Source: a virus (lineage: Duplodnaviria; Heunggongvirae; Uroviricota; Caudoviricetes). Taken from it: DNA of 5,993 nucleotides. Under the pieces are notes generated by a model. It was not told the origin of the DNA. It searched no databases and saw only the letters and a list, made by a program, of their open reading frames with translations. The stretch lies in IMG/VR virus record IMGVR_UViG_2778261058_000003. One strand, 5' to 3'. The translations under genes were made by a program, and so were the position numbers. Position 1 is the first letter of the stretch; every line of letters starts with the position of its first letter. Below, in pieces: positions 145 through 3,284 of this stretch.

Positions 145-536
145 CGATTCACCTCCTGCTCAATATTTTTAAGGTCATTTTCCGCATACAGTATTGCTGT
201 CCTGGCTGCTCGTAACCGGGCTTTGGCATTTTTCTCTTCACGTTCAAGTTTTGCCACAGCTTCACGAAGAGCATCCCGCTTTGCATAGAGTGATTTAATC
301 TCTGATACGATGTTTTCACCGTTTCTCGCACGGTCGAGAACAAGTTCGAACGGATCTAAAGTCAATCCACACCGTTTGCAGGTAATCGTACGATTCACTT
401 CTGAAATTGTTGTACGGATATGCTGACAGCATTTTTGCTCGACACTTTTTTCGTCGGTTATCACAACGTTGAGGAGTCCTCCCTCCTCTGATTTTGGCTG
501 TACCAGGGTGATAACATTGTCGACTTCATTTTTCAT
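141..536 (-). CDS. Hypothetical phage protein with a putative zinc ribbon (CC-x15-CxxC) and a C-terminal coiled-coil-like, charged helical region
   Basis: 131-aa ORF. Start ATG overlaps the stop of the upstream gene (ATGA at 536). AGGAGG (complement 544..549) lies 7 nt upstream. Cys pattern CCQH...CKRCG; the C-terminal 50 aa are rich in A/E/K/R heptad-like repeats. Confidence 0.6.
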   Translation of the reverse strand: MKNEVDNVITLVQPKSEEGGLLNVVITDEKSVEQKCCQHIRTTISEVNRTITCKRCGLTLDPFELVLDRARNGENIVSEIKSLYAKRDALREAVAKLEREEKNAKARLRAARTAILYAENDLKNIEQEVNR

Positions 537-901
537 CAGTTCACCTCCTGCGGTGGTTCCGGTAGCGGCATCCAGTGAGTTGCCTGCTCAATACCATTAC
601 CCGGCTTAATCGTTGCTTCTCCTCGCCGGAATGTGCTTCCTGTATAGCGTGCGGAGCATATTAGCGGTTCAACCAGAGAGCTATCGAAATTCACCGAAAT
701 AAGTACGTTCTGGTTCTTTTCTGGCATTCGCTCACTACAACTTATCCAACCATCCGGAGTTACCGGAGAGTTGCCAGCCTTGCGCATGGCAATCTCCACG
801 ATTTCAACCATATCTCCTGGCGGGATTTTGCAATGCTGACCAAAGCGCCTCTGCTGTCTGGCATACTCGAGGATGTGCTCCAGTTTGGTTCGATTAATCA
901 T
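536..901 (-). CDS. DUF551-like phage protein
   Basis: 121-aa ORF. Motifs GWISCSERMPE and HWMPLPEPP resemble what I recall of the DUF551 family of enterobacterial prophage proteins (from memory, not searched). ATGA overlap with the upstream gene at 898..901; AAGGGAGA upstream of the ATG. Confidence 0.55.
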   Translation of the reverse strand: MINRTKLEHILEYARQQRRFGQHCKIPPGDMVEIVEIAMRKAGNSPVTPDGWISCSERMPEKNQNVLISVNFDSSLVEPLICSARYTGSTFRRGEATIKPGNGIEQATHWMPLPEPPQEVN

Positions 902-1515
902 GATTTATCTCCCTTAAGCATGGCGGCGCAGCAGGCATTCCATGAAATTTCCTGAAGGGAACGACGAATCTGTGTGCTGCATATACTCCTCCCTGACTCC
1001 TGGCTGTTAAACCATGTTTCAAATTCCGGCACTACTGGTGCTGGTTGGGTGGTGACATTGGCAAAGGCTGCACGCAATCCGGCCTTAATTTCCTCTACCT
1101 CATCAGCACCTGGAGATGAATCTGACAGAGCGTGATGGAATGCGTAAGCCATGTCGTCGCTTACTGCTATCGGCTCTGCTTCCAGTGATACCAGTGCAAT
1201 CTGCGTCCTGACCCACGCCACCCGCGCCGGATTCATATGGCACATGTTGTTCCCTTTTTCTTCATAGTAATGCCCTTTACTCTCGTTAAATGGCAACACC
1301 TCATACAGCCCGGCACTTCTGAAATCAGCGTGTAATTGTTCCAGTGCCGCTTCGCTGGAGGCACCGATTGATGTGAGATAATCGAAAAGATTGGCGCATA
1401 AACCATAATTTCGAGAAAACACCCCACCTGGTTTCGCCCCATTACTCAGCCACAAATCATAAGCAATATAAAACCCGTAAAGCTGTTTTCTGATATTTTC
1501 TTTGGTTTCTTGCAT
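898..1515 (-). CDS. Hypothetical phage protein (205 aa), function unknown
   Basis: Long ORF on the operon strand, co-oriented and overlapping the downstream gene by ATGA. I recognise no motif. No canonical SD sits directly before the ATG at 1515; the nearest AGGAGG serves an out-of-frame ATG instead (see findings). Confidence 0.55.
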   Translation of the reverse strand: MQETKENIRKQLYGFYIAYDLWLSNGAKPGGVFSRNYGLCANLFDYLTSIGASSEAALEQLHADFRSAGLYEVLPFNESKGHYYEEKGNNMCHMNPARVAWVRTQIALVSLEAEPIAVSDDMAYAFHHALSDSSPGADEVEEIKAGLRAAFANVTTQPAPVVPEFETWFNSQESGRSICSTQIRRSLQEISWNACCAAMLKGDKS

Positions 1516-1612
1516 TATTTATTACCGCCATTTCGGGCGGCCTCCTGATGTTCTGAGGGTGTAGGAATCCCTCCGGTTAAGGATTAAATTTTATTTGCAA
1601 CACTAAATTTAA

Positions 1613-2137
1613 TTATTCAGGCGAGCGAATCTGTTCCGCACAATGCAACAATGCTTCTGTCACTTCCTTAAGCGTTACGGTATCGGCATCATCCAGTCCT
1701 GCAACTTTTGCGTGCCTGACAAACGCCGCGCGAAGCTCGTCAAACGCCACCGCCCGTACATCAGCCAGGAAAGCATCTGTAGCCGGGGTTTGCGGCATAC
1801 CTCCGTCTGTTGCGCAGATATACGCATCAGATAGTTCATCCTGCTCGCCATCAAACACGTAGCAACTCTGTACGATAAATTTATTCAGCCCCGCATTCTC
1901 CGCCGCCAGCGCCATGCGTTCTTTCTCAAGTCGGAAAATTTCAGTCACGTATTTGGCGTTTTCACCCCCCTTGATTAACTCGTTAATTCGTTTGCTTTTA
2001 ATTTCCAGTTCATCCAGCAGTTCCAACACAACCTGAGGTGTGGCTTTCATACGAAATGCCAGCAATTTTTGTGGTGTGGCTGCTATTTTTATTGCTTCTG
2101 CCGCCCCACGCAGTGCCTGATAGTCAATCTTGCTCAC
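1613..2137 (-). CDS. Ead/Ea22-like phage protein (putative)
   Basis: 174-aa ORF. N-terminus MSKIDYQALRGAAEA resembles the conserved N-terminal region I recall for Ea22-like prophage proteins. GTG start (complement 2135..2137) with AAGGAG 7 nt upstream; 14-nt overlap with the upstream ORF. Confidence 0.5.
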   Translation of the reverse strand: MSKIDYQALRGAAEAIKIAATPQKLLAFRMKATPQVVLELLDELEIKSKRINELIKGGENAKYVTEIFRLEKERMALAAENAGLNKFIVQSCYVFDGEQDELSDAYICATDGGMPQTPATDAFLADVRAVAFDELRAAFVRHAKVAGLDDADTVTLKEVTEALLHCAEQIRSPE

Positions 2138-2390
2138 TGGTTGTCTCCTTTTTCCATGTTTTCAGACTTTCACCACAGAACGGACAAAATGAAACCCGCA
2201 CTGGTGATTTAGAAAATTCACCGGAACGCAACATCACCAAATCAGGGCCGCGAGTTAAACTCTCATTCCAGATTTTGTATATCAGCAGACCTTTTCGCGT
2301 CGTGTATTCAGCATCATGCTCAAGGGATTTTGCCAGTGCCGTACACGGTTCTATCTTGTTGCCATAAACCAGGCATTTTGATTTACCCAC
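2124..2390 (-). CDS. Small Cys-rich protein (88 aa), possible zinc ribbon (C-x9-C ... CPFCG)
   Basis: GTG start at complement 2388..2390 preceded by AAGGAGG with a 6-nt spacer. Overlaps the methyltransferase stop by 8 nt and the Ea22-like start by 14 nt. Contains a C-terminal CPFCG motif. Confidence 0.5.
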   Translation of the reverse strand: MGKSKCLVYGNKIEPCTALAKSLEHDAEYTTRKGLLIYKIWNESLTRGPDLVMLRSGEFSKSPVRVSFCPFCGESLKTWKKETTSEQD

Positions 2391-2871
2391 TGGTTGCCTC
2401 CTTCATAAAAATAATCCAATGTGTTTTATCGTTCTTACCAGTGCGCTGGCTGATGATTGGTTTCACGTCGGTCAGTGCCAATATCTGGCGGACAGATATT
2501 TGCGTTTCATTCCATTTAAAAATCAGAACGCCATGTGGCCACAACACACGAAAGGCTTCTTTAAATCCCTGCCGCAAATCATCACGCCAGGTATCTTTAT
2601 TCAGCCGTCCATATTTCTTTCCCATCCAGGCATTATCACCAATACGCTCAAGATGCGGAGGGTCGAATACAACAACCGGAAACGTTGCGTCTGCAAATGG
2701 TAATGCACGAAAATCTGCTATCAGGTCAGGGCTAATAATCAGGCGTCGCCCATCGCACAATGTATGCTCTTCCTTTCTGATATCGCTAAATATCGCCCGG
2801 TCGTCATTCTTATCGAACCAGAACATACGGCTGCCACAGCACATATCAAGAATGGTTGCCGGTGTACTCAC
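2383..2871 (-). CDS. Small SAM-dependent amino-methyltransferase, probable orphan DNA (N6-adenine or N4-cytosine) methyltransferase
   Basis: 162-aa ORF. Motif I-like LDMCCGS near the N-terminus and motif IV-like VVVFDPPH about 65 aa later, the pattern of amino-methyltransferases (D/N/S-PP-Y/F/H). GTG start at complement 2869..2871 with AGGAGG 7 nt upstream. No adjacent nuclease gene is evident. Confidence 0.6.
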   Translation of the reverse strand: MSTPATILDMCCGSRMFWFDKNDDRAIFSDIRKEEHTLCDGRRLIISPDLIADFRALPFADATFPVVVFDPPHLERIGDNAWMGKKYGRLNKDTWRDDLRQGFKEAFRVLWPHGVLIFKWNETQISVRQILALTDVKPIISQRTGKNDKTHWIIFMKEATSG

Positions 2872-3284
2872 AGCATCACCTCCTGAAATTTCCCCTGATA
2901 AAACGCCAGCACTCGCTGCATAACCTCACTCTTCCGGCACTCGCGACAGATTATGTTCTGACGCCTGTCGTAGCGGCGTATCTCTCCATCTGGTAATGAA
3001 TAAATCAGGTCAGGATCGCTCTTTTTCTTCACCGCCGCTTTCGACATCTTTTCGATGGCTTTAATCCAATCCTTACGTGCCTGCGCTGAAGGGAATATTC
3101 CATACCCTGAACCATATACAACACCACTGGCTACCAGCTCTTTCGTCAGAACTTCTATCAGATGTCTCGTCGCCCCAATTTCATTTTCCAGTTGTTTACG
3201 CGTTTTCCGACCATCTCTGCGTACCAGTTCCACAATGCGCGCCTTCACTTCTTCCCGCTGTTCGGAAGTAAAAACTTTTGCCAC
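2868..3284 (-). CDS. Hypothetical phage protein (138 aa), possible winged-helix DNA-binding protein
   Basis: GTG start at complement 3282..3284 with AGGAGG 4 nt upstream. Segment TRKQLENEIGATRHLIEVLTKELVASGVV looks like a helix-turn-helix. The stop overlaps the methyltransferase start. Confidence 0.55.
   Translation of the reverse strand: MAKVFTSEQREEVKARIVELVRRDGRKTRKQLENEIGATRHLIEVLTKELVASGVVYGSGYGIFPSAQARKDWIKAIEKMSKAAVKKKSDPDLIYSLPDGEIRRYDRRQNIICRECRKSEVMQRVLAFYQGKFQEVML

What the first reader, a model, noticed from the sequence alone, without database searches (positions are those of the whole stretch)
149..2885. Recurrent 10-nt junction cassette CAGGAGGTGA at three gene boundaries, imposing a shared QEV C-terminus
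The plus-strand decamer TCACCTCCTG occurs at 149..158, 541..550 and 2876..2885, each time 3 to 4 nt upstream (minus-strand sense) of an overlapping stop/start junction. Because it lies inside the upstream coding frame, the three otherwise unrelated proteins end in ...QEVNR, ...QEVN and ...QEVML. This looks like a conserved linker or boundary sequence of the kind proposed to mediate modular gene exchange in lambdoid phages, and it marks the flanked genes as exchangeable cassettes.
Basis: seen in the sequence. Interest (0 to 1): 0.5.

Follow-up and report, generated by a model that had tools for sequence, protein, structure and literature searches.

The report
Strong ribosome-binding sites at overlapping gene junctions
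The repeated 10-base motif is a near-perfect ribosome-binding (Shine-Dalgarno) site placed four bases before the start of the next gene in three overlapping prophage gene pairs, so the shared Gln-Glu-Val protein tail is a side effect of reading that site in one frame; it is ordinary, although gene gain and loss in related phages does break exactly at such junctions.

Summary
TCACCTCCTG occurs three times (0.01 expected), always on the coding (minus) strand of a lambdoid prophage early operon.

Its complement, CAGGAGGTGA, pairs over 9 consecutive bases with the 16S rRNA 3' tail. In all three cases it ends 4 nt before the next gene's start codon, which overlaps the upstream stop (ATGA, TGATG, GTGA). 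This fixed geometry puts CAG-GAG-GTG in the upstream frame, which gives the QEV tail.

The same QEVxx*/ATGA junction occurs between unrelated proteins in viral contigs of 30-66% GC, so it arises convergently.

The "exchange linker" reading is only partly supported:
- For: relatives lack exactly the 131-aa gene plus one copy of an 11-nt repeat (CAGGAGGTGAA). Homology to relatives ends within about 10 nt of the decamers.
- Against: boundaries without the decamer are just as mosaic. The 27-aa gene also follows other genes that carry different ribosome-binding sites.

A second recurrent junction (AAGGAGGCAACCAGTGAG) flanks the 88-aa gene. Its spacer is not rRNA-complementary, so it looks more like a true boundary sequence.

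Best reading: translational-coupling ribosome-binding sites, which may incidentally provide microhomology for cassette gain and loss. Both ideas are already known, so interest is low.

The parts
149..158 (-). Junction J1: decamer CAGGAGGTGA, the extended Shine-Dalgarno site for the 27-aa ORF. It lies inside the last codons (QEVNR*) of the 131-aa phrog_1621 gene.
   Evidence: for the match; duplex with the 16S tail is -17.3 kcal/mol. The start ATG at 144-142 is 4 nt downstream, and the ATGA stop/start overlap is at 141-144.
541..550 (-). Junction J2: decamer CAGGAGGTGA, the extended Shine-Dalgarno site for the 131-aa phrog_1621 gene. It lies inside the last codons (QEVN*) of the DUF551 gene.
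   Evidence: -16.2 kcal/mol. The start ATG at 536-534 is 4 nt downstream, and the TGATG overlap is at 534-538.
2876..2885 (-). Junction J3: decamer CAGGAGGTGA, the extended Shine-Dalgarno site for the methyltransferase gene. It lies inside the last codons (QEVML*) of the DUF977/LygF gene.
   Evidence: -17.7 kcal/mol. The start GTG at 2871-2869 is 4 nt downstream, and the GTGA overlap is at 2868-2871.
61..144 (-). 27-aa hydrophobic peptide ORF (MTWPEAFTTVGIAMAVVLVVYSICRWG), the gene served by decamer J1.
   Evidence: for the translation. It is conserved after either phrog_1621 or DUF551, and after other genes, in related contigs. It has no family match.
141..536 (-). 131-aa gene (phrog_1621, unknown function). 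It is a single-gene cassette flanked by the 19-nt direct repeat D7 (141-159 and 533-551, 17/19 identical, 11 nt exact).
   Evidence: repeat D7. The gene is absent, with a clean single-repeat joint, in L085, L029, L105 and L022. The deletion-form junction aligns in two pieces about 392 nt apart in E. coli genomes that carry the gene.
536..901 (-). DUF551 gene. Its conserved tail ...PLPEPPQEV carries decamer J2.
   Evidence: PF04448, 9.8e-23. The same tail is joined to at least six different downstream gene families in relatives.
2868..3284 (-). DUF977 / LygF (Ren-like) gene. Its tail ...FQEVML carries decamer J3.
   Evidence: The same tail is joined to four different downstream gene families in relatives. 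The gene is flanked by repeat D10, CCTCCTGAAA (2879-2894 and 3289-3304).
2383..2871 (-). DNA methyltransferase gene (phrog_954), the gene served by decamer J3.
   Evidence: 4.7e-87. The GTG start is shared with homologues.
2383..2403 (-). Second recurrent junction, type B, copy 1: AAGGAGGCAACCAGTGGGTAA at the methyltransferase | 88-aa gene boundary.
   Evidence: repeat D3, 18/21 identical with 2130-2150..
2130..2150 (-). Second recurrent junction, type B, copy 2: AAGGAGACAACCAGTGAGCAA at the 88-aa gene | Ead/Ea22 boundary.
   Evidence: repeat D3. In relatives it links many upstream genes to many downstream genes, and it is read in two frames. Direct methyltransferase-to-Ead joints that lack the 88-aa gene exist.

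Best explanation
**What it is.** The decamer is an extended Shine-Dalgarno ribosome-binding site, AGGAGGUGA, which is 9 consecutive Watson-Crick pairs with the 16S rRNA 3' tail ...GAUCACCUCCUUA. Each copy serves the next gene in a tightly packed, translationally coupled run of accessory genes. These genes lie downstream of the replication gene in a Qin/Rac-like lambdoid prophage.

**Why the tails match.** In all three cases AGGAGG lies 7 nt before the start codon, and that start overlaps the upstream stop codon in the -1 register (ATGA, TGATG, GTGA). The upstream frame is therefore forced to read CAG-GAG-GTG. The shared QEV tail is a by-product and not a protein feature.

**Link to mosaicism.** Each upstream gene carries the next gene's ribosome-binding site in its own last codons, so the site is inherited with that gene family. 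When downstream genes are swapped, gained or lost, the surviving joints sit at the start codon. The 11-19 nt of near-identity between such junctions can also serve as microhomology for recombination.

**Shown versus inferred.**
- Shown: the motif, its geometry and its complementarity to 16S; its conservation at junctions; its convergent occurrence elsewhere; and the clean single-gene indel.
- Inferred: actual ribosome binding and coupling, and any role of the repeat in recombination.
For: - **Strongest ribosome-binding sites in the window.** The predicted duplex with the 16S tail is -16.2 to -17.7 kcal/mol for the three decamer genes, against -6.2 to -12.3 for the other nine genes.
- **Strand bias.** AGGAGG occurs 8 times on the coding strand and 0 times on the other strand. 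Six of the 8 lie 6-9 nt before a start codon (five before listed genes, one before a 24-codon ORF).
- **Identical geometry.** There are 4 nt from the decamer to the start codon in all three cases.
- **Always at junctions.** All 81 distinct decamer contexts in 2.39 Mb of related viral DNA lie just upstream of a start codon, and 76 meet the ORF-junction criteria.
- **Convergence.** These came from contigs of 30-66% GC. In 53 of 83 sites the motif joins two ORFs, the proteins are unrelated to those here, and all the upstream ones end QEVxx*.
- **Descent within families.** Homologous tails vary by point changes, for example QKV, QEA, LEA and QGI, including CAGGGGATAAAACAATGA in place of CAGGAGGTGAATCGATGA at the same junction.
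- **Accessible mRNA.** There are no inverted repeats at the junctions, and the local mRNA is no more structured than shuffled controls (z = +0.2 to +1.9).
Against: - Nine-base Shine-Dalgarno matches are rare. Outside the three query families, only about a dozen AGGAGGTGA sites were seen in the 2.39 Mb sample. Three in one 6-kb window is therefore more than typical ribosome-binding-site strength would predict.
- Junctions J1 and J2 are 17/19 identical. That extends beyond the bases that pair with rRNA and includes the stop/start region.
- All three copies have C at the one position that does not pair with 16S. This is weak evidence, because the frame allows only C, A or G there.
- No expression or ribosome data were available.
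Confidence: 0.85

Rival explanations
1. The decamer junction is a conserved boundary (linker) sequence in the sense of Susskind-Botstein and Clark et al. Under this view, short identical junctions shared by different phages are the actual crossover sites. They would be used by phage annealing recombinases such as RecET or Red, which shuffle the flanking single-gene cassettes. Their recurrence would then reflect spread by recombination, and not independent selection for ribosome binding.
For: - **Clean indel.** A 392-bp indel of the 131-aa gene is flanked by an exact 11-nt repeat (19 nt at 17/19), and relatives keep a single copy.
- **Many partners.** The DUF551 tail plus decamer is joined to at least six downstream gene families and the DUF977 tail to four, mostly in the same register.
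- **Breakpoints at the motif.** Homology ends 1 nt before the decamer or 0-10 nt after it.
- **Second junction type.** AAGGAGGCAACCAGTGAG links many upstream genes to many downstream genes, is read in two frames, and has a conserved spacer that is not complementary to rRNA. Relatives lack the 88-aa gene that it flanks.
- **Recombinase present.** Related prophages encode exonuclease VIII, which is RecE.
- **Literature.** RecET recombination at 5-13 bp has been reported at about 1e-8 (PMC2327257). The boundary-sequence hypothesis is summarised in PMC3029335.
Against: - Boundaries without the decamer hold twice as many breakpoints (585 against 291), even though the loci were chosen through genes that flank the decamers.
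- The 27-aa gene is joined to other upstream genes through different ribosome-binding sites (GGAGGAT, GGAGGC, GGGGGC), with homology starting at the ATG.
- The methyltransferase indel shares only AGGAGG...GTG between its two ends.
- DUF551-tail joints also occur in other registers (TAATG, GTGGCTAA, GTGAATAA), and truncated tail remnants exist. This is what illegitimate joining followed by selection would produce.
- The same junction arises convergently in unrelated phages.
- Selection for an intact ribosome-binding site and start codon would by itself leave only seamless joints.
Confidence: 0.3
2. The recurrence is a chance coincidence, or a trivial result of base composition.
For: None. The only point in its favour is that the motif is short (10 nt).
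Against: - There are 3 matches against 0.01 expected, and none of 200 shuffles reaches 3.
- There are 219 occurrences in related loci against a mean of 4 for same-composition permutations.
- Every occurrence is in the same orientation, frame and distance relative to a start codon.
Confidence: 0.01
3. The decamer is the recognition site of a dedicated site-specific system, for example an integron-like cassette site, a homing endonuclease target or a transposon target duplication. Such a system would insert single genes.
For: The 131-aa gene is flanked by an 11-nt direct repeat, which superficially resembles a target-site duplication.
Against: - There are no inverted repeats or stable hairpins at any of the three junctions.
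- No recombinase, endonuclease or transposase family was found among the ten window proteins scanned.
- The motif is fully accounted for by complementarity to 16S rRNA.
- It recurs at the same distance from start codons in unrelated phages.
- The other cassettes are not flanked by it.
Confidence: 0.02

Closest known systems
Shine-Dalgarno sites in translationally coupled, overlapping genes (ATGA / TGATG / GTGA stop-start overlaps), as in the lambda nin region and many operons
   Same: - It is complementary to the 16S 3' tail.
- AGGAGG lies 7 nt before the start codon.
- The start overlaps the upstream stop.
- The site is embedded in the upstream gene's last codons.
- It lies in the accessory-gene run between the replication genes and Q, as related annotated prophages show.
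   Different: The match is unusually long (9 consecutive pairs), and it is identical at three junctions within one 6-kb window. Most sites in the same window pair much less strongly. Coupling itself was not measured.
Short conserved boundary sequences proposed to mediate module exchange in lambdoid phages (Susskind and Botstein 1978; Clark et al. 2001, as cited in PMC3029335 and PMC2327257)
   Same: - It is a short conserved sequence at gene boundaries, shared by otherwise unrelated flanks.
- One gene's presence or absence is bounded by two copies.
- Homology breakpoints fall at it.
   Different: - Its sequence is explained by ribosome binding.
- It is not needed for mosaic joints at neighbouring boundaries.
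- It flanks only one of the cassettes on both sides.
- I could not read Clark et al. 2001, so I could not compare it with their actual sequences.
Mycobacteriophage Island3 gene 68 insertion, flanked by about 50 bp of repeated 3'-end sequence (PMC3029335)
   Same: It is a single small gene present in one phage and absent in a relative. It is flanked by a repeat that makes the two neighbouring genes share C-terminal residues.
   Different: Here the repeat is only 11 nt exact (19 nt at 17/19) and consists of a ribosome-binding site plus the stop/start overlap. The Island3 repeat is about 50 bp and encodes 18 shared residues.

Membership tests
Shine-Dalgarno / translational-coupling junction | Complementarity to the 3' tail of 16S rRNA | tested here: met
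   AGGAGGUGA gives 9 consecutive pairs with ...GAUCACCUCCUUA, the established E. coli sequence. Duplex energy is -16.2 to -17.7 kcal/mol, the three strongest of 12 genes.
Shine-Dalgarno / translational-coupling junction | Located about 5-9 nt upstream of the start codon of a real gene | tested here: met
   There are 7 nt from AGGAGG to ATG/ATG/GTG in all three cases. The downstream ORFs are conserved families or are conserved in relatives. In related loci, 76 of 81 contexts meet the ORF-junction criteria.
Shine-Dalgarno / translational-coupling junction | Stop codon of the upstream gene overlaps or abuts the downstream start | tested here: met
   ATGA at 141-144, TGATG at 534-538 and GTGA at 2868-2871.
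Shine-Dalgarno / translational-coupling junction | Downstream translation depends on the site and on upstream translation | not testable with these tools
   This needs reporter fusions or ribosome profiling.
Boundary (linker) sequences for modular exchange in lambdoid phages | Short sequence conserved at module boundaries between otherwise non-homologous flanks | tested here: met
   The decamer links 7 upstream clusters to 12 downstream clusters in 16 combinations. Flank homology is lost at the decamer.
Boundary (linker) sequences for modular exchange in lambdoid phages | Present on both sides of the exchangeable module | tested here: inconclusive
   This is true for the 131-aa gene (repeat D7; clean indel). 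It is not true for the methyltransferase, the exonuclease or the other alternative cassettes.
Boundary (linker) sequences for modular exchange in lambdoid phages | Mosaic breakpoints coincide specifically with the sequence | tested here: not met
   Breakpoints coincide with all gene boundaries. Of the HSP ends, 66% fall in 13.8% of the window; 585 are at boundaries without the decamer and 291 at decamer boundaries. The 27-aa gene is joined through other ribosome-binding sites as well.
Boundary (linker) sequences for modular exchange in lambdoid phages | Recombination actually initiates or resolves within the sequence | not testable with these tools
   This needs phage crosses or recombineering assays.
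Site-specific cassette sites (integron attC-like, homing or transposition targets) | Inverted-repeat or hairpin site together with an associated recombinase or endonuclease | tested here: not met
   There are no inverted repeats and no excess structure. No such enzyme was found among the ten window proteins scanned.

The most novel reading that the evidence does not exclude
Over-strong, near-identical Shine-Dalgarno/stop-start junctions could have a second role. This would apply to the decamer type and to the AAGGAGGCAACCAGTGAG type. In the accessory-gene runs of Qin/Rac-like lambdoid prophages they might act as preferred microhomology sites for RecET/Red-type annealing. In that case single genes would be gained and lost as pre-formatted, translation-ready cassettes, and the unusual length and identity of these junctions would be maintained partly by that recombination.
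Probability: 0.25. Interest if true: 0.45.

Novelty: already known. Interest (0 to 1): 0.2.

Why it matters
It matters mainly as a caution. A statistically striking repeated motif and a shared protein tail can come entirely from a consensus ribosome-binding site read in a fixed frame at overlapping genes. The same QEV tail appears convergently in unrelated phages.

There is also a modest positive point. This locus gives clean, checkable examples of single-gene indels bounded by junction repeats: the 131-aa gene and the 88-aa gene. These bear on the old debate about whether phage mosaicism comes from recombination at short boundary sequences or from random joining followed by selection. They do not settle that debate, and the concept is not new.

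Tried and rejected
- **Chance.** Rejected.
- **Known RNA family.** Rfam found no family at gathering threshold anywhere in the window.
- **Hairpin or inverted-repeat recombination site.** None was found.
- **QEV as a functional protein tail.** Rejected for two reasons. Homologous tails vary (QKV, QEA, LEA, QGI). Unrelated proteins also acquire QEV wherever this ribosome-binding site is read in that frame.
- **Frameshift signal.** I considered programmed frameshifting stimulated by an internal Shine-Dalgarno site. It is not supported, because in each case the upstream frame stops 3-6 nt after the decamer and a conserved independent ORF starts there (reading).
- **Population frequencies.** I tried to count the deletion form against the insertion form in E. 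coli genomes. The deletion-form query also matches insertion-form genomes in two joined pieces, so exact counts cannot be separated. Only upper bounds are available: at most 673 genomes for the direct joint, 181 for J1 and 66 for J2 at 80% coverage or more.
- **Clark et al. 2001.** The paper could not be read.
- **NCBIfam.** It gave nothing useful for the small proteins.
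Full report
**1. What the window is**

The minus strand carries a lambdoid early operon:

| Gene | Window coordinates | Evidence |
|---|---|---|
| cro-like | 4718-4945 | PF14549 |
| CII/YdaT-like | 4296-4721 | |
| O-like replication initiator | 3325-4272 | phrog_391 |
| DUF977 / LygF (Ren-like) | 2868-3284 | |
| DNA methyltransferase | 2383-2871 | phrog_954 |
| 88-aa gene | 2124-2390 | |
| Ead/Ea22-like gene | 1613-2137 | |
| 205-aa gene | 898-1515 | |
| DUF551 | 536-901 | |
| 131-aa gene | 141-536 | phrog_1621 |
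| 27-aa hydrophobic ORF | 61-144 | |

A cI/DicA-like repressor is divergent on the plus strand (5042-5689).

Related annotated prophages show the same backbone. Examples are Escherichia phage vB_EcoM-606R7 and an E. coli chromosomal prophage. In both, a variable run of small genes sits between the replication gene and hok/DUF968/RusA/Q, which is the position of the lambda nin region. RecE (exonuclease VIII) lies on the other arm. No complete E. coli genome or phage record covers 80% or more of the window, so this particular mosaic is not in those collections.

**2.

- TCACCTCCTG occurs at 149-158, 541-550 and 2876-2885. There are 3 matches against 0.01 expected.
- On the coding strand the sequences read:
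  - J1: CAGGAGGTGA-ATCG-ATGA
  - J2: CAGGAGGTGA-ACTG-ATG
  - J3: CAGGAGGTGA-TGCT-GTGA
- In every case the start codon begins 4 nt after the decamer and overlaps the upstream stop.

**3. What the decamer is**

AGGAGGTGA is the exact complement of nine bases of the E. coli 16S rRNA 3' tail, GAUCACCUCCUUA (established knowledge). The plus-strand decamer is therefore almost literally the rRNA tail.

- **Strength.** The predicted mRNA-rRNA duplexes for the three downstream genes are -17.3, -16.2 and -17.7 kcal/mol. The other nine genes give -6.2 to -12.3.
- **Strand bias.** AGGAGG occurs 8 times on the coding strand and never on the other strand. Six of the eight copies lie 6-9 nt before a start codon (five before listed genes, one before a 24-codon ORF).
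- **Frame.** The distance from the ribosome-binding site to the start is the same in all three. The stop/start overlaps ATGA, TGATG and GTGA all put the downstream gene in the same relative frame. The upstream frame must therefore read CAG-GAG-GTG. The QEV tail is a geometric consequence.
- **Structure.** There are no inverted repeats at the junctions, and the local mRNA is no more structured than shuffled controls. That fits an accessible initiation region.
- **Known RNAs.** Rfam finds nothing.

**4. The junction arises convergently**

I scanned IMG/VR for CAGGAGGTGANNNNATGA. The contigs range from 30% to 66% GC.

In 53 of 83 sites the motif joins an upstream ORF of at least 40 codons, read in the QEV frame, to a downstream ORF of at least 25 codons. 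Examples are ...ETTQEVTP*/MIPFPDKK...DFRQEVTR*/MKWARLDS and ...QPKQEVTP*/MINWRENE. None of these proteins is related to those in the window. A QEVxx* tail therefore appears wherever a consensus ribosome-binding site is embedded in this register.

**5. Behaviour in relatives**

I fetched 240 viral contigs (2.39 Mb) that encode homologues of the three upstream proteins.

- **Frequency.** The decamer occurs 219 times, against a mean of 4 for 400 same-composition permutations. All 81 distinct contexts have it just upstream of a start codon, and 76 meet the ORF-junction criteria.
- **Inheritance.** It travels with each upstream family's tail:
  - DUF977 tails (...FQEVM[LA]*) are followed by four different downstream families.
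  - DUF551 tails (...PEPPQEV..*) are followed by at least six.
  - The phrog_1621 tail is followed by two.
- **Variation.** Homologous junctions differ by point changes, such as CAGAAGGTG, CAGGAGGCG and CTGGAGGCG. In the more distant phrog_1621 homologues the same junction reads CAGGGGATAAAACAATGA. This shows ordinary descent with variation around the GGAGG core.

**6.

*(a) Presence or absence of a gene.* Several relatives (L085, L029, L105, L022) join DUF551 directly to the 27-aa gene through one CAGGAGGTGAATCAATGA. Compared with the window, they lack exactly 392 bp: the 131-aa gene plus one copy of the repeat. The flanks are roughly 90-95% identical on both sides. In the window the two copies form repeat D7, which is 19 nt at 17/19 identity with 11 nt exact. 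In E. coli genomes that carry the gene, the deletion-form junction aligns as two pieces spanning 482 bp.

*(b) Precision of the breakpoints.* I extended from the decamer as an anchor.
- The 12 contexts that share only the downstream side of J1 lose homology 1 nt before the decamer.
- The 34 contexts that share only the upstream side of J2 lose it 0-9 nt after the decamer.
- The 27 contexts that share only the upstream side of J3 lose it 9-10 nt after the decamer, at the GTGAG.

- Of 1,322 internal BLAST HSP ends, 66% lie within 25 nt of a gene boundary, and those zones make up 13.8% of the window. Of the boundary-associated ends, 585 lie at boundaries without the decamer and 291 at the three decamer junctions. 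This is so even though the loci were selected through genes that flank the decamers.
- The 27-aa gene is also found behind other genes through different ribosome-binding sites (GGAGGAT, GGAGGC, GGGGGC), with homology beginning at the ATG.
- The two ends of the methyltransferase indel share only AGGAGG...GTG.
- DUF551-tail joints also occur in other registers (TAATG, GTGGCTAA, GTGAATAA), and truncated tail remnants exist. This is what imprecise joining filtered by selection would produce.

**7. A second recurrent junction, seen in passing**

AAGGAG[G/A]CAACCAGTG[G/A]G occurs at 2383-2403 and 2130-2150 (repeat D3, 18/21 identical) and flanks the 88-aa gene.

In relatives the same sequence links many upstream tails to many downstream genes. 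The downstream genes include Ead paralogues, a methyltransferase variant and the 88-aa gene. The sequence is read in two frames, as ...RKGGNQ* and as ...KEATSE..*. Direct methyltransferase-to-Ead joints through it exist that lack the 88-aa gene.

Its spacer, CAACCA, is not complementary to 16S rRNA, so ribosome binding alone does not explain this similarity. Of everything in the window, this is the best candidate for a true boundary sequence. DUF977 is likewise flanked by CCTCCTGAAA (repeat D10).

**8. Mechanism and comparison with what is known**

The best-supported reading (confidence about 0.85) is a set of consensus Shine-Dalgarno sites for translationally coupled overlapping genes. This is textbook biology.

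The idea that short conserved boundary sequences mediate module exchange is also established as a hypothesis. It comes from Susskind and Botstein 1978 and Clark et al. 2001, and is summarised in PMC3029335 and PMC2327257. [quoted passage not shown] PMC2327257 notes that RecET can recombine 5-13 bp homologies at about 1e-8. Relatives of this prophage encode RecE.

The data here are compatible with junction microhomology sometimes being used, at the 131-aa and 88-aa gene indels. However, selection for an intact ribosome-binding site and start codon would by itself leave only seamless joints, so the sequence data cannot separate the two explanations.

**9. Verdict**

It is wrong in treating the motif as a dedicated linker, and the QEV tail as imposed by anything other than a ribosome-binding site read in frame. 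The novelty rating is "already known" and interest is low (0.2).

Noticed in passing
window 2130-2150 and 2383-2403 (minus strand): A second recurrent junction, AAGGAG[G/A]CAACCAGTG[G/A]G (18/21 identical), flanks the 88-aa gene. In relatives it links many upstream genes to many downstream genes and is read in two frames (RKGGNQ* or KEATSE..*). Its spacer CAACCA is not complementary to rRNA. Direct methyltransferase-to-Ead joints that lack the 88-aa gene exist.
   Followed up: partly
window 2879-2894 and 3289-3304: DUF977 is itself flanked by a 16-nt direct repeat (CCTCCTGAAA[T/A]TT[C/A]CC, 14/16 identical). In other words, its own ribosome-binding site, TTTCAGGAGG, resembles the J3 junction. 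I found no relative that lacks only DUF977.
   Followed up: partly
window 1516-1612 (minus strand): This is a 97-nt gap between the Ead/Ea22 gene and the 205-aa gene. It contains CAGGAGG followed by the hairpin CCGCC-CGAAAT-GGCGG. An ATG sits 9 nt after the AGGAGG and opens a 24-codon ORF in another frame. The 205-aa gene itself has the weakest ribosome-binding site in the window (-6.2 kcal/mol). The element is conserved upstream of 205-aa homologues, with compensatory-looking variation (GCCCGAAAGGGC). It could be a leader ORF or a regulatory hairpin.
   Followed up: no
window 61-144 (minus strand): A conserved 27-aa hydrophobic ORF (MTWPEAFTTVGIAMAVVLVVYSICRWG) has no family match in NCBIfam and was not scanned against Pfam or PHROGs. 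It recurs after DUF551, phrog_1621 and other genes in many enterobacterial prophages. It is probably a small membrane peptide of unknown function.
   Followed up: partly
window 760-790: A strong cluster of homology breakpoints (127 HSP ends) falls inside the DUF551 gene, at the start of the Pfam DUF551 domain (residue ~51). The N-terminal part of this protein is therefore swapped independently of the conserved C-terminal domain. This is mosaicism within a gene, at a domain boundary.
   Followed up: no
window 4958-4978, 5010-5026, 5736-5752, 5764-5785: Repeated AT-rich 17-21 nt sequences (TAAAxxAxTTTAGATT) lie in the cro/cI intergenic region and again downstream of cI. They are likely operator sites for the DicA/cI-like repressor.
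   Followed up: no
L305, L243 (DUF551 homologues in IMG/VR contigs): Some relatives carry a DUF551 gene whose whole C-terminal domain is deleted (…SERMPDDR-QEVNQ*). The deletion ends exactly at the 5' edge of the decamer. Others keep only a remnant of about 12 nt of the DUF551 tail in front of the decamer.
   Followed up: no
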